A stretch of 63,883 nt of DNA, the filler included, from Circinaria calcarea (Eukaryota), in NCBI GenBank assembly GCA_051942165.1. It is 17 parts of 17 records of this genome, joined end to end, with 100 filler letters (N's around TTAATTAATTAA, not from the genome) between each part and the next. Parts side by side here need not be neighbours in the genome. Positions count along the whole stretch, not along the records: positions 41,442 to 45,100 come from JAVECS010002689.1; 16 more parts are not named here. The stretch is one strand, 5' to 3'. The notes beneath the pieces were generated by a model. That model made no database searches. It was not told the origin of the DNA and saw only the letters and a program-made list of their open reading frames with translations. Shown in pieces: positions 38,506 through 45,100 of this stretch. The translations under genes and the position numbers were made by a program. The number at the start of each line of letters is the position of its first letter. The stretch's first letter is position 1.

Positions 38506-41001
38506 TTATTTAGGAAAGCTGGAGGGTTCTCCCTCTGGTCTCCATGGCCTGGATTTTCGAGGGAAAACTCTTTTATAGAGGCTAACACCGACGGCATCCT
38601 GGGGGTTGATCTTGCCATCAAAGGTAGCCTTAAAATACCCGTGCGTGCCTAAACTCTCCTTGATATATCCGCTTCTCCCTCTCTTTGTCCATAGCTGCAA
38701 TGCCTTGAACCAATTCACGTCCTCGGAGTTGAAGAACATGTATCGTACAGTGACCAGCTTCTTATGGATTTTGTAAGGATGACCGGTTAAGATAACTCTT
38801 TTCGCAATCACGCGGGAATGATCAGGAGCTTGGGATGTGCCTGTTCCAATAAGCTCCATTTCTGAGTTGGAGGGTATCCCGGTGATCATGGAGTCCGTGG
38901 CCGGAGATGCAGGGTTCCGCTTGAAGATCAGCGTTGGTACTGAACTCCAGGTCAGTGGAGCCACGAATGTTGCCATAGCAGTGCGTCCGGGATGAAGGTA
39001 ACGGTCGAATTTGTGGACGTTATTCGGCGTATTGCCGGTTTGAGAGAAAAGAGGATTGACGATGAATCGTCGCGGACCGCACTGAATGATTAGTTCCTCC
39101 TTTGACTTTATCGGACTCGGATACTCGGAGTTTAGTGTCATACTGAAGTTCATTACTGTTTGTTGATGTTCATGCTGTAAGAGCGAAAAGAGTATCAAAG
39201 GATTCGTGGACAAGACATTATTTTGCAGTGAGATAGGGACACCACGTATGTGCACATTGACACGGGTACCAGCCTTTACGCCACCAACCAGAGCTTCACG
39301 GAGTGCCTGCGCTTTTGCACCTTTATAGTTTGAAACCTGGAGTAGTCTGTTCCAATCGTCAGGTTGGTGTGCTTTATCTTCTTCGGTTTCCCAGTTACTC
39401 GTTCTTAGGCTCTTCAGCCCTCTATATCTTGCGAGCCGCTCACGAGCAAGCACATTCGGATGTAACTCAATCTCGTCTGGAAACTCAAGGTCCTCGTCCG
39501 CTTCATTTCTCCGAAGTGACCTATAAGCCGCAAGCTCTTCAGCTTCCTCGTTAGGAGAAGGATCAAGGAACATCTCCGATTGAGGATATTCTGAAGCGGC
39601 CAACTCGGTGGGATCCTTCTGAGTAGCCCGGTCGAGTCCTTCGAGCCCGTCCTGGGGTAGTGCAGGTACATCCATTGCAACATCACCATCTTCCTCTAGG
39701 AGATCTTCATCATCTGAACCAGAATCTGACATATCCCCAAGAAACCAAGCAGCTTGATAGGACGAGGTCCCTTTGGGTAGACGTTTGGGCGCCTCTGGGA
39801 GATGAGTCTCATCGTCAGAAAAGTAATGATGATCGTCAAGTAGGACTCCTTTCTTCTCAGTGGGAACTTCGGAGCTTGCTGCACCAGTATCGTCCTCCAT
39901 TGTGATGTCATCTGGGGCGAGATCTGTAAGCTGTTCTTGATGCTCATCTGATACCTCGAGCACTGTTTCATCTTGAGGCTCATCTAGTGCCATCTCGTCT
40001 GCCTTCCGCTTCTTGAGATTTGGTAGGGCTGCTGCAGTGATCTTCTCAATTTGAAAAGTACCCCAATCGCCAACTTGTACTAGTCTATTGGCTTTAAGAC
40101 CCTTGCCTCTAACAACACCAGAAACCACAACTTCACCGCGTGTGAGGGGATAATTGTTGTCAACGCTTGGCCATTGGACAGCCTCGATAAGCATCCAACT
40201 TCTGGCTTCTCGCCACCTAACACCCTTCGGAGTAGTTGTGCAAAGAGAACGAACCACGTTGGCGCAGTCTTGATGCGAATCGAGACTGTGTACCTTTTCC
40301 TGCTCAGGAAAGAAGTGGTTTATGTAAGACTTTAGAGAAGCGAGAACCTGTGGTCGCCGTTTGGATGGCTCGACCTGATCTATATCTTGTACTGCTGTAA
40401 GAACATTGGAAACTCCTTGATTATCAACAGCTCGTAGAAGTAGCTCCCCTATTTCATCTACCTCTTCGGAAGATGACAGTATAAATATTACGAAATCTGC
40501 GACTCGACAAGCATCGAGCACATACAATAGGTCTCGTTGCACCGGTATGTACTGAATATTTTGCTTAAAGCGGTCGACTCGAATCTTTGCCAGACCTTCC
40601 GCCGGCACATCCGCTTCCAGATTTAGTCCATCATTGAGCCTTTGTATCGCAACTTTCGCGTCGCAAGCTTTCGTCAATGGTACGATTGCCACATTCCTTG
40701 GTGCACCATTGAGCCCAGAAAAGACAGTGGTGAGTTTGGTGTTTTGCTGATGCTTCATCTGCTTTTTCTGGTGTGCTTGGTGTCTCCGCTCAATCTTTGA
40801 CATGACTTGTTGATGCAGCGACTTACGGTTTCTCTGCGTGCCGTTCTCGACTTTACCTATTGGATGTCAGCTATAAGTTTTCAGCGCGGTTCTCAGGCAC
40901 TGACCTTTTGTTAAGTCCTTGATTAGACCTTTGGTAGCATGCTTTGACTTGAACGGTTTATGAGATGACTTCGTAGTACTTCGGTGGTGGTGGCCATCCA
41001 T
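38506..41001 (-). CDS. TSR1: 40S ribosome biogenesis factor Tsr1, 2 exons
   Basis: Exon 1 (41001-40905) MDGHHHRSTTKSSHKPFKSKHA, intron 40904-40857, then FPDEIEL, RLARYRGLKS, KRVILTGHP, VRYMFFN and GYIKESLGTHGYFKATFD. Confidence 0.97.
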
Positions 41002-41441: not shown

Positions 41442-42232
41442 ATATACGACTTCCCCATCCGATCCCCCTCCGCCCCTGTGCCCTTCCATGTTCCAGTAAC
41501 CATCCCTTCAAACCGCTCCACGGTAAAGACCTCATCCGTCCCCAACAGATCCCGTGCATCATTCTCCATTCCCAGACCACCCTCATCGTACACAATCAGC
41601 TGATCGATGCTGCAGGCAAACTCGCACCGGTAGTACAGTACCCGCGCAGCCGCCTTTCCATCCTCCTCATCCTCCTCCTCATCATCATCATCCTCCACTG
41701 TCACTAGGAGAATGCTGGACCCGTCGCATACAGACTTCTGGTCTAGCACTCCGAAGGCGCGCTGCGACCAGTCTGGGTATTTAGGCGCGAACTCGTCGAG
41801 GAAGATGGACGCGAGTTCTGTAATAGGCTTGCCGGGGAACGGAGCCTTGACGTCGTCGATTGGGAGGCGTGTGCCATGCGTGTGTTCGTTGGGGGATGGG
41901 GAGGTTAGGATGCAGAGGGCCGCGCCAGAGGAGGGGGGAAAGCTGGCACGGGTGAGAGTTATGAGGGATTCCAGGATCTAGGAATGGGTGATCAATACAC
42001 TGGTGAGAAGATCGATAGCATACAGAGAGAGAAAGGGGGGGGGAGTTTGGCTGTTGATGTATACCTTTGCGGGCACGTCTGCGGTGCAGAAGACGGGGAA
42101 GAGCTTGCATGCGTTTTCAATGGTATCAGAGTCATCTACCCAGCTAGCTTCGCTTTCGTCTGACTGTGAAGCTTGGTCGTCAATGGGATACTCATTTTCG
42201 GAGACGGCGCTGCTGGGTCGTTCGTGCGCCAT
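41442..42232 (-). CDS. Hypothetical acidic protein, 2 exons, probably 3'-truncated
   Basis: Intron 42064-41978 (GTATAC...TAG) joins FPVFCTADVPAK to ILESLITL...FGVLDQKS...LLVT...YRCEF in one open frame that runs to the contig end. Confidence 0.65.
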
Positions 42233-42604
42233 TAGCGGGTATGAGGACAGATGATATTAAATAAGTTAAAACAATGCTGCGAGCGTGTTTGTGACTGCAG
42301 AGAGTGAAGAAGAGAAGGTGAGCTCGTGATATATGAATGTTTGTAACCGCAAATGTGTTGGTAGAGGTTGGGGCAGATGTTACGTCCCTAAGCTTCTTAG
42401 GCAAAGGCAATGCTAGTCACTGGTATAAGGCGGGGACTCTGTAATATGCACTAAGGTTCTATACCAATCACTTGGCAAGTAATAAGTGACAATAGAAGTA
42501 TATTGCTACACTTGTAAAGTCTTGACCACACAGGTCAAATACTACGGAAAGGACTATGGTTATATAGATCCCATGAGACAGGGGTAACACCTCCGCTCCC
42601 ACTG

Positions 42605-42697
42605 CTCCCATACGTTACACAGGGATCTCTGGGAGCATGCCAAGCCTTGTGCTCCCTATACTCCCATCCGTTACACAAGGATCCTCGGGAGCATACC
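42605..42697 (+). repeat. Imperfect 37-bp direct repeat, 56-bp period
   Basis: CTCCCATACGTTACACAGGGATCTCTGGGAGCATGCC versus CTCCCATCCGTTACACAAGGATCCTCGGGAGCATACC. Confidence 0.75.
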
Positions 42698-43390
42698 TCA
42701 TCATACGCCTCCCCTGGGCTTCTTTGGTCACGCTCCTCTAGTGTCTTAACAGGAAAGCGCTCCATAATATAATGTTTCTGTGCGCGGAGCACTAAAAACG
42801 GAGCCCTTCGTATCATATATAAATTATCGATGGGATTTCGATATACATATCGTAGTCTACAAGGGCTCGACGATAATAAATAAGTGGTGATTTAATTATT
42901 GCTTTTTTGGTTGCCTGTAGAGGAGTCTGTAATATTTGCCAGAACTTTAATTGCATTGCCACTTGGCTGCCTTTATGTTCTGTACTTAGCCACCACAAAC
43001 GGCCGGCAAACTCTTTCCCAACTATCGTTTTGTTACCAACCTAGTTTTTCGTTCGCACTTTTACTTTACTGGAGCTAACATTGTTCAATGGACCCCCTTC
43101 TTCTTATTATATCGTGTTATACATATTATTTTATTCCGCAATTGCCTTTTGGTTGGTTGTTGTGCCCTCCATAATATAGCAACTTCACTTTGCAGATGTT
43201 TTATAACAAGTTAGTAGGAGGAATCTGATGTTTTAACATACCGGTATAATCTTCTCTAAGTTACCTTTCTATAGACTGTATATATAAAGCCTTTGCCCCT
43301 CTTTAAACCATATTGATTTCTATTAACTATTCATGACTTTTTATACTTCAAGTGGGCAACGCAAATTAGTAAAGCTTCTCTTTATTCATA

Positions 43391-45100
43391 ATGAAGCTCT
43401 TTTACGTCTTCTCTCTTCTCCTTTTACTTCCGCTCGACTTTGGACTGGCTGCGCCACCATCCAAGAAGTCGAGCAGTAGCAGTTCATCCAGGAAATCCTC
43501 CCTCTCATCCCCGCCGGTACCCCAGTTACCCGCTATACCGCCTATACCAGCCTCACCGAAGAAGGATCCGGTCGTTGCAGCTCCGGCAAAGCAGCCGCAA
43601 TCGATTAGTAAGGAGCAGAAGCCATCTAACCATCAATCGGCTGGAAGTACCAAAGCTCCAGCGAATAACACTCCTCCCAAAGTTGGAGGAGAGGGAGATG
43701 GCCGCAGGACTCGTGCGAAGGCAAAGCAGCAGCAGCAAAAAGGGAGCGATCAAAAACCAGCACAAGGAAGGCCTGTCAAGCCGAAGCTGACATTGGATAC
43801 GAGTGGTAATTACAAGAAAGATCCAAGCCCAGGAGGTAGCCCGAGGAAGGGTGACCAGGGTAAATCTCCCATCTCTCCCAAAACACCCACGACGCCAGGC
43901 GCGCCGCCTAGAATTATCGATACCACACGCGGAAGCGACTACGAACGTCTATGGCCCAAGCCCGGAGAGAAGTCAAGGGATAGTAAATCCTCATACCCAA
44001 CCCAAGAGGGCCCTTCCACGCCACCAAAAAAAAAGGACAAGGAAGCGGCAACCAAAAAGAAGCAAGATGAAGCCAGACAGAAAAAAATCAAAGGACTCTT
44101 AAAAGAACCTGGACACAAGCCCCAAAGACCAGACGCTAACTGGGTCCCTCCAAGCCCTGACGCCAAGCCTGGACTCGAAAAAGCTAAAGCACAAAAAGGA
44201 AAGCCGAAATACCACCTCCCAGGGGAGGACAAGAAGGCAGGCAAAACGCCATATCACCCTATTGAGAAATCCTCTGGCGTAATCACGGCTCCCGATCGCA
44301 AGCAGCAGTATTCTGGGCAGTCTGGAAGCCCGCGAAATGATCCCGGCTTCCTACAGTACACGAACAATAAAGACCCATATGATCGATCATATGTGCGCAA
44401 GGAGAAATTCAAGGAAAAGGATGGCAAAGAGAAGGTTGCCGGCGTGAGCGTATATGATGGGCTCAACATGCCGTATCATGCTGCCAATAAGCTCAATAAT
44501 CTAAAGAAGAACCCCGATTATACTTACGCGCAAGTGGTAAAGGGCGGGAAGGGCAAGAAGGACAACCGCAAAGTCACTGATAAAGTGAAGCAAACATATG
44601 ATCCCGCCCGGGAAAATTCCAAGAAAAAGCCGCTGGCTAATCCAAAGGACGAATCCCCGCAGGCCGCAACATATGTTAAGGACAAAGGCGAGGAGAGGAT
44701 GGCCAAGACCAATGTTGCGCCGGTCCCAGACCGGGAATCTCGAGGCAAGCTCCCTATTATTCTGTTAATTTTATTCCTCATACATACTTTGCTAATAATT
44801 CTGCAGCTGAGGGCTTTTTAAGTTCGAGCACAGATCGGCAAGCCCAGAAGCTTGCCGACAAAGCGAAACAGAAAAAGGTTTGGACTGGAACCGCAATTAT
44901 GGACGGTGACAGGTTGAAATACGACTACAAAAATGGCAAGAAAGGACCTTATAACCTGCCCAGCCCACCTGGGTCGCCGTAAGTTCCCCCTTCGACTTCT
45001 CGCCTCTCTAATCCCCCTTTCTTATCCCACATTCCCCCTTTGCCCTTCTATGACTTCTCCTTTACTTCCTAACACAGTAACCACTAACATCGTTCTAGCC
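43391..45100 (+). CDS. Secreted Lys/Pro-rich protein with a C-terminal NucA/NucB-like nuclease-fold domain; probably continues past the contig end
   Basis: Signal peptide, roughly 330 aa of basic low-complexity sequence, then MPYHAAN...KDNRK...KDESPQAATY...NVAPVPDRESR|AEG...IMDGDRLKYDY after removing GC-AG intron 44745-44806. A second intron-like segment spans 44979-45098. The domain call is by motif spacing only. Confidence 0.65.

What the first reader, a model, noticed from the sequence alone, without database searches (positions are those of the whole stretch)
43391..45100. Secreted, Cys-free, polybasic protein hiding a NucA/NucB-like nuclease fold
Seen: a signal peptide, about 330 aa of K/P/S-rich sequence, no cysteine in either readable exon, and after splicing the ordered motifs PYHAAN...DNRK...KDESPQAATY...VAPVPDRESRAEG...MDGDRL. 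Known: NucA/NucB (His-Me finger) nucleases have a DE-x-P-x-A core, then V-x-x-V-x-x-x-[DE]N-x-x-x-G and a terminal DG-x-x-hydrophobic strand. Inference: a divergent secreted nuclease or nucleic-acid-binding effector with a cationic tether for DNA, surfaces or microbes. The metal-ligand Asn position reads Ser (ESR), so activity may be altered or lost. This is my best candidate for an undescribed system in the window.
Basis: partly seen in the sequence, partly recalled or inferred. Interest (0 to 1): 0.8.

Follow-up and report, generated by a model that had tools for sequence, protein, structure and literature searches.

The report
Secreted NucB-derived protein, swapped metal ligand
A fungal gene encodes a cysteine-free, strongly basic, likely secreted protein whose last third is likely a remodelled NucA/NucB DNase that keeps the catalytic Asp-Glu pair but has serine where the metal-binding asparagine should be, so it would be a rare new branch of this family that either cuts DNA with a rewired site or only binds it.

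Summary
The gene is real: 43391-44982, one GC-AG intron at 44745-44806, 509 aa, no Cys, pI about 10. It is single-copy here and belongs to a small unannotated family (9 clusters among 1.84 billion representatives). Descent from NucA/NucB nucleases is likely (about 85%). One relative's only Pfam hit is PF14040 (E 0.014, below cut-off). Family and NucA/B profiles align in register over up to 113 columns, beating nearly all shuffles. The intron sits at the same codon and phase as in the genome's own canonical NucA/B gene. The NucB residues Arg77, Asp93 and Glu94 are kept, but the essential Asn117 is Ser in every member that keeps the motif. All cysteines of fungal NucA/B are gone, and conserved extensions flank the core. 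The fold is unconfirmed: the AlphaFold core had pLDDT under 50 and structure searches found nothing. Activity, expression and secretion are untested. Verdict: a new variant of a known kind and a single gene, not a system. Best reading is a tethered extracellular nuclease with a rewired metal site (0.45); the main rival is a dead DNA binder (0.3).

The parts
43391..44744 (+). Exon 1 (residues 1-451 and the first base of codon 452)
   Evidence: identical to P0001 over this exon
43391..43450 (+). Predicted signal peptide (about residues 1-20)
   Evidence: Kyte-Doolittle 9-mer 2.66 at residue 5, the best in the protein; P0003 has a similar N-terminus. No dedicated predictor was run.
43451..43897 (+). 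Variable K/P/S-rich, predicted disordered cationic region (residues 21-169)
   Evidence: composition; low identity to relatives; pLDDT about 35-42
43898..44242 (+). Basic segment conserved among close relatives only (residues 170-284), with a predicted helix at 215-237 and an NLS-like basic patch at 211
44243..44428 (+). Family-wide conserved N-terminal extension of the domain (residues 285-346), absent from canonical NucA/B; predicted beta hairpin
   Evidence: pLDDT block means 77-85 over 311-350
44429..44744 (+). NucA/NucB-like core, exon 1 part (residues 347-451): H363 at 44477, N366 (His53 site) at 44486, R393 (Arg77 site) at 44567, D420-E421 (Asp93-Glu94) at 44648-44653, S450 (Asn117 site) at 44738
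   Evidence: NucB residues from PMC5758888
44745..44806 (+). 62-nt phase-1 GC-AG intron at the same codon as the intron of the canonical fungal NucA/B gene
44807..44901 (+). Exon 2, core part (residues 452-483): long helix and the likely last strand of the core
44902..44982 (+). Exon 2, conserved C-terminal tail (D-Y-x-N...G-x-Y-N-x-P) and stop codon
   Evidence: D491, Y492, G498, Y500, N501 and P503 are identical in both relatives that cover it

Best explanation
This is a single-copy fungal gene for a likely secreted protein whose C-terminal domain likely descends from a fungal NucA/NucB DNase gene and would still cut extracellular nucleic acid, using the kept Arg393, Asp420 and Glu421 with a rewired metal site, while the basic N-terminal region would tether it to DNA or other anionic surfaces. 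Shown: gene structure, composition, a small family, the conserved residues, Ser at the Asn position, and the shared intron position. Inferred: secretion, the beta-beta-alpha fold, Glu421 as general base and Asp420 as metal ligand as in NucB, and replacement of the Asn ligand by Ser450, water or a nearby conserved residue (Glu449, Glu453 or the family-specific His363). Untested: any activity, substrate, expression or role in the lichen thallus (scavenging DNA phosphate, or clearing bacterial biofilm matrix).
For: Homology: P0004's only hit among 24,736 Pfam models is PF14040 (E 0.014; 1 of 12 members scanned). It scores 17.7 bits on a fungal NucA/B profile, with 0 of 1000 shuffles as high. Family versus 14 bacterial domains: hhalign score 25.4 over 84 columns; versus bacterial plus 8 fungal: 21.9 over 113 columns, all motifs in register. 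Column and block shuffles reached these scores in 0/70, 0/70, 0/70 and 0/70, 0/70, 2/70. With the KDE-x-P motif masked, the first strand-helix and the last helix still align in register, weakly. Intron: same codon and phase 1 in the candidate (ESR-A^-EG) and in the genome's canonical gene L002 (ENS-S^-EG); chance about 0.3-0.6% given the register. Selection on the site: R393, D420 and E421 are among 16 invariant of 83 columns in 5 non-redundant members, as are H363, E449, S450 and R451. P0009, the one member lacking D-E, also lacks H363 and S450. Predicted element order strand-helix-strand-helix ... helix-strand fits NucB's five strands and three helices (PMC5758888).
Against: Asn117 is essential in NucB (the B. 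subtilis N111A mutant is inactive; PMC5758888 section 14). The site is Asn in 60 of 64 scorable fungal hits (Ser in 1), and Asn in 11 and Gln in 3 of 14 bacterial domains. Glu453 is also present in canonical fungal members that keep the Asn, so it is not a new compensation. The window protein itself scores only 3.4 bits on the fungal profile (23 of 1000 shuffles as high), and P0003, P0006, P0007, P0009 and P0010 score at chance. hhalign probabilities are 1-17%, against 99% for the fungal-versus-bacterial control, and the whole-length comparison was off-register at 0.2%. The AlphaFold model did not form the beta-beta-alpha unit (pLDDT under 50 at 385-457). 3 of the 5 longer relatives tested show no N-terminal hydrophobic segment, though these are probably partial gene calls.
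Confidence: 0.45

Rival explanations
1. NucA/B-derived pseudo-nuclease: same ancestry, but loss of the Asn ligand abolished catalysis, and the protein binds, condenses or shields extracellular DNA or other polyanions in the thallus matrix while the canonical paralogue does the cutting.
For: Loss of this Asn kills NucB. Ser is fixed in all 7 rows that keep the motif, and P0009 has lost D-E yet keeps both flanking extensions. The genome has an intact canonical NucA/B gene (L002, 86.7 bits). The protein is very basic.
Against: Arg393, Asp420 and Glu421 stay invariant out to P0007 at 24% overall identity; an acidic pair is not needed for plain DNA binding.
Confidence: 0.3
2. NucA/B-derived nuclease that works inside a target cell (photobiont or neighbouring microbe) as an effector, entering with its basic region; loss of disulphides would suit a reducing compartment.
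For: 0 Cys against 8-10 in 8 canonical fungal members; NLS-like patch at 211; bacterial NucA/B domains occur as Rhs and PAAR toxin tips.
Against: No uptake, localisation or expression data. It is single-copy in this genome. Cysteine-poor bacterial members are also annotated as plain nucleases.
Confidence: 0.12
3. The motifs are a chance resemblance; the conserved domain of about 220 residues has another, unknown fold and function.
For: No Pfam, NCBIfam, PHROG or PDB sequence hit for the window protein; low hhalign probabilities; a branch of about 3.8 changes per column to any NucA/B; the family's best-predicted part (311-360) lies mostly outside the NucB core.
Against: Shared intron codon and phase, colinear alignment of several separate motifs, and the relatives P0004, P0005, P0011 and P0012 being closer to the NucA/B consensus than the query.
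Confidence: 0.13

Closest known systems
Bacillus NucB (PDB 5omt; PMC5758888), Glu-type beta-beta-alpha endonuclease
   Same: Order and rough spacing of the helix-1 P-x4-[HN] motif, Arg77, [RK]-D-E-x-P, and [DE]-x-R-x-x-G; basic residue before D-E; likely secreted.
   Different: Asn117 is Ser; His53 is Asn in the window protein (His in P0007 and P0010); longer loops; conserved extensions of about 60 and 25 residues; a 280-residue basic N-terminal region; no disulphide.
Fungal DNase_NucA_NucB proteins (PF14040), e.g. the own-genome gene L002 and P0013-P0079
   Same: Phase-1 intron at the same codon; E-x-x-x-E-G helix motif; Asn at the His53 site; signal peptide.
   Different: They carry 8-10 Cys, Asn at the metal site (60 of 64), about 230 aa, and P0028 is near neutral; the candidate has no Cys, Ser at the site, 509 aa and pI 10, and falls outside their clade in the tree.
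Actinobacterial and proteobacterial NucA/B domains, including Rhs and PAAR toxin tips (L006-L019)
   Same: N-R motif, D-E-x-P, tolerance of Asn at the His53 site (4 of 14) and of a non-Asn residue at the metal site (Gln in 3 of 14).
   Different: None has Ser at the metal site; no bacterial homologue of the candidate family was found; no immunity-type neighbour is evident.

Membership tests
DNase_NucA_NucB (PF14040) | Score over the curated cut-off of 23.8 bits | tested here: not met
   No hit for the window protein or P0001; best relative P0004 16.4 bits, 1 of 12 members
NucB-type beta-beta-alpha nucleases | Asp93 metal ligand and Glu94 general base in a D-E motif | tested here: met
   D420-E421; present in 8 of the 9 aligned rows that cover it, P0009 being the exception. 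The register rests on profile alignment.
NucB-type beta-beta-alpha nucleases | Asn117 metal ligand at the start of the last helix | tested here: not met
   Ser in 7 of 8 covering rows, Val in P0009, Asn in none
NucB-type beta-beta-alpha nucleases | His53 positioning Asp93 | tested here: inconclusive
   Asn366 in the window protein and 7 relatives, His in 2, Lys in 1. Asn is invariant at the matching site in 21 fungal PF14040 members (register by eye) and occurs in 4 of 14 bacterial domains.
NucB-type beta-beta-alpha nucleases | Arg77 contacting the scissile phosphate | tested here: met
   R393 in 9 of 10 covering rows; mapped through the N-R column and the Asp-minus-16 position of L011, assuming no indel against NucB
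NucB-type beta-beta-alpha nucleases | Beta-beta-alpha fold, five strands and three helices | tested here: inconclusive
   Model core pLDDT under 50; the outer elements fall in the expected order; structure searches uninformative
NucB-type beta-beta-alpha nucleases | Metal-dependent non-specific DNase activity | not testable with these tools
   Needs an assay
Fungal NucA/B subfamily | Conserved cysteines | tested here: not met
   0 Cys against 8-10 in 8 full-length members
Fungal NucA/B subfamily | Phase-1 intron in the codon before E-G of the last helix | tested here: met
   Seen in DNA for the window gene and L002; inferred from read-through peptides for the other members
Classical His-Me finger (HNH) nucleases | Histidine general base on the first strand | tested here: not met
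   Glu421 at that site, as in NucB

The most novel reading that the evidence does not exclude
An undescribed fungal branch of NucB-type nucleases that is active without the asparagine metal ligand thought essential for the fold, using a new His/Asp/Glu site, and that a lichen fungus deploys with a cationic tail against extracellular DNA, its algal partner or thallus bacteria.
Probability: 0.3. Interest if true: 0.75.

Novelty: new variant of a known kind. Interest (0 to 1): 0.5.

Why it matters
If active, it would be a natural beta-beta-alpha nuclease with both the His-to-Glu change of NucB and an Asn-to-Ser change at the metal site. That bears on how this active site works, which the NucB paper left partly open, and it would add a disulphide-free, surface-tethered DNase. 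If inactive, it is a secreted pseudo-nuclease kept beside its canonical paralogue, pointing to a use for DNA binding in the lichen matrix. Either way it gives a testable handle on a family that Pfam, NCBIfam, PHROGs and the ESM Atlas search miss, and it corrects the public gene model at the very helix that carries the site.

Tried and rejected
RNA runs: none was listed, so there is no evidence on expression or splicing. ESM Atlas: no usable hit and no model for two queries. Foldseek against PDB: no match at E 0.001 or better. VIA-align against 48,161 chains: best Z 4.3, rmsd 4.2 over 73 residues, to GNAT acetyltransferases, none at Z 5 or more, NucB not listed; with a low-confidence 510-residue model this neither supports GNAT nor excludes NucB. 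The model used the public splice form, which has seven other residues in place of six at the start of the last helix; a second model on P0007 could not be run. JGI metagenome scans: 588 and 249 pattern matches, none confirmed. Prokaryote genomes: 1 of 77 candidates passed, a weak 27% match lying within an unrelated 319-aa ORF that looks like an aldo-keto reductase (by eye), rejected. Viral contigs (one exact pattern) and plasmids: none. The third homologue search covered only proteins of 1148-3275 aa and found none, which is weak evidence. Whole-length profile comparison failed. The tree puts the family on one very long branch and does not resolve its origin (L014 and five family rows left out). 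A shared upstream repeat between this gene and L002 was rejected (blastn best E 2.4). Earlier scan findings: nothing. Literature: searches listed no paper on this family; two lichen preprints had no passage on NucA or DNase. Their supplements and those of PMC5758888 were not seen and could list such proteins.

Full report
Setting. The window is a chain of contigs of about 3.7 kb joined by N spacers. The gene lies on G000:C2689, 3659 bases, window 41442-45100, so nothing beyond these limits is a true neighbour. The protein collection holds the same exon-1 sequence as P0001 on a contig of the same length, labelled hypothetical protein of Circinaria calcarea, a lichen-forming fungus (own knowledge).

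Observation. The frame starts at 43391. Removing 44745-44806 gives 509 residues, no cysteine, K 15.9%, P 12.6%, S 9.2% and a mature pI of 10.0, with all six motifs in the order given. The intron is GC-AG. The public model uses another intron (44764-44822 gives its 510 aa) and reads G-K-L-P-I-I-L after ESR. Five relatives in three clusters (P0002, P0005, P0006, P0011, P0012) lose similarity right after ESR, with Gly or Arg, as reading into a phase-1 GT donor would give (inferred from peptides, their DNA was not seen). No RNA run was listed.

Family. A two-sequence profile against 1,835,955,588 representatives found 9 proteins at E 0.001 or better, none named by a source except as hypothetical. 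P0004 and P0008 may be two pieces of one gene (both on contigs of 1450 bases, abutting in the alignment). Close members (P0002-P0006, P0008, P0011, P0012) are 44-61% identical to P0001 and distant ones (P0007, P0009, P0010) 24-25%. Conservation begins near residue 151-170 in close members and near 285 family-wide, so the conserved domain is about 220 residues, larger than NucB's 109. Three searches of the own genome found only this locus. No bacterial, plasmid or viral homologue turned up. The longer members are all basic (net +9 to +74).

Is it NucA/NucB? The window protein has no Pfam, NCBIfam, PHROG or PDB sequence hit of note. Among 12 members, P0004 alone hits PF14040, at E 0.014 and 16.4 bits against a cut-off of 23.8. 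I built reference sets from the genome's own canonical gene (L002), its 67 fungal relatives (21 aligned, whose profile finds NucB at E 2e-6) and 14 of 62 plasmid records. For these tests the family alignment was cut to residues 352-509, P0008 was dropped, and read-through tails were trimmed from seven rows. On the fungal profile P0004 scored 17.7 bits (0 of 1000 shuffles as high), P0005, P0011 and P0012 scored 7.6-7.9 (1-4 of 1000), the window protein 3.4 (23 of 1000), P0002 2.4 (50 of 1000), and five rows were at chance. Profile against profile gave 17.3 on fungal (1 of 100 shuffles), 25.4 on bacterial and 21.9 over 113 columns on the combined set. Column and block shuffles reached these in 0 of 210 and 2 of 210. 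Probabilities were only 1-17%, against 99% for the positive control, and the uncut comparison failed.

Independent support comes from gene structure. L002 has a 68-nt phase-1 intron in the codon before E-G in E-N-S-S-E-G; the candidate has its phase-1 intron in the codon before E-G in E-S-R-A-E-G. The site is common in fungal NucA/B genes: 24 of 62 scorable hits read S-K or S-M there instead of S-E, as intron read-through would give. A coincidence of codon and phase has a rough chance of 0.3-0.6%. I put descent from NucA/B at about 85%. The intron points to a fungal NucA/B ancestor; the tree shows only a very long branch outside the cysteine-rich fungal clade.

Structure. AlphaFold on 12 sequences gave mean pLDDT 48.8 and pTM 0.32. 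Residues 311-360 and 461-480 were fairly confident; 385-457, which hold the putative active site, were under 50 (P0001 numbering). The elements that formed (strand 347-355, helix 362-373, strand 379-382, helix 394-397, helix 456-471, strand 477-483) fall where the alignment places NucB's first two strands and helices, its last helix and its last strand (five strands and three helices, PMC5758888 section 13; the order is partly my inference). Foldseek and VIA-align found nothing meaningful, so the fold test is inconclusive.

Active site. In NucB, His53, Asp93, Glu94 and Asn117 are each needed, and Arg77 is modelled on the scissile phosphate (PMC5758888: abstract, passages, sections 13 and 14 read; supplements not seen). 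The family keeps Arg (9 of 10 rows), Asp-Glu (8 of 9) and a basic residue before them (9 of 9); it has Asn or His at the His53 site (10 of 11) and Ser at the Asn117 site (7 of 8, Val in P0009). Canonical members have Asn there in 60 of 64 fungal (the script's label D+23 should read D+24) and 11 of 14 bacterial sequences, with Gln as the usual variant. In 5 non-redundant members 16 of 83 columns are invariant, among them R393, D420, E421, E449, S450, R451 and a family-specific H363. P0009 has lost H363, D-E and S together while keeping both extensions, which hints that these residues form one site (a single case). A fixed Ser amid invariant catalytic residues looks more like rewiring than decay, hence 0.45 for an active enzyme. 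A serine is a poor Mg ligand (own knowledge) and an intact paralogue exists, hence 0.3 for a dead binder.

How it would work. Secreted through its signal peptide (inferred), held on extracellular DNA or anionic matrix by the basic region (inferred), with Asp420 binding a divalent ion and Glu421 activating water as in NucB (inferred), and the Asn role taken by Ser450, water or a neighbouring conserved residue (speculative). Its role in the thallus is untested. Because a defining residue fails and the Pfam cut-off is not met, I file it as a NucA/B-derived variant and not as a member.

Literature. Ten searches (listings only) showed no description of this family. In bioRxiv 10.1101/2024.08.16.608140 (passages only) lichen effector candidates include ribonuclease folds, with no mention of NucA or DNase; 10.64898/2026.09.03.749242 (term search only) has none of the terms. 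Their supplements were not seen.

Verdict. A real, rare, unannotated gene family, likely a remodelled NucA/B nuclease with an unusual metal site. It is a single gene with unproven fold and activity. New variant of a known kind; interest 0.5.

Noticed in passing
window, whole: The window is a concatenation of contigs of about 3.7 kb separated by N-TTAATTAATTAA-N spacers, so gene neighbourhoods across spacers are artefacts.
   Followed up: yes
L002 (G000:C423:7872-11114), minus strand, start near locus 1842: Intact-looking canonical cysteine-rich NucA/NucB gene (PF14040, 86.7 bits) with at least one intron. The public model P0068 covers only 57% of the queried region and may be mis-annotated.
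   Followed up: partly
window 42595-42697: Two 47-nt direct repeats, 81% identical and 56 apart, about 700 bases upstream of the gene.
   Followed up: partly
L002 1954-2190: Tandem repeat of period 115, 2.1 copies, just upstream of the canonical nuclease gene; unrelated to the repeat upstream of the candidate.
   Followed up: partly
window 41442-42232, minus strand: Divergently oriented gene cut by the contig end, in two frames that meet near 41978 (probably an intron), with an acidic run; the part tested has no Pfam hit.
   Followed up: partly
P0002 residue 60 and P0007 residue 245: Both carry a C-R-R-x(n)-G-C motif in the otherwise unrelated basic region, possibly a processing site with a disulphide; absent from the window protein.
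   Followed up: no
PDB 9fj7: A NucB sequence with Gln at the Asn117 site is deposited; its purpose was not checked, but it may show how the site behaves without Asn.
   Followed up: no
window 38506-40866, minus strand (another contig): 786-codon open frame that looks like the ribosome biogenesis factor Tsr1 (recalled, not tested).
   Followed up: no
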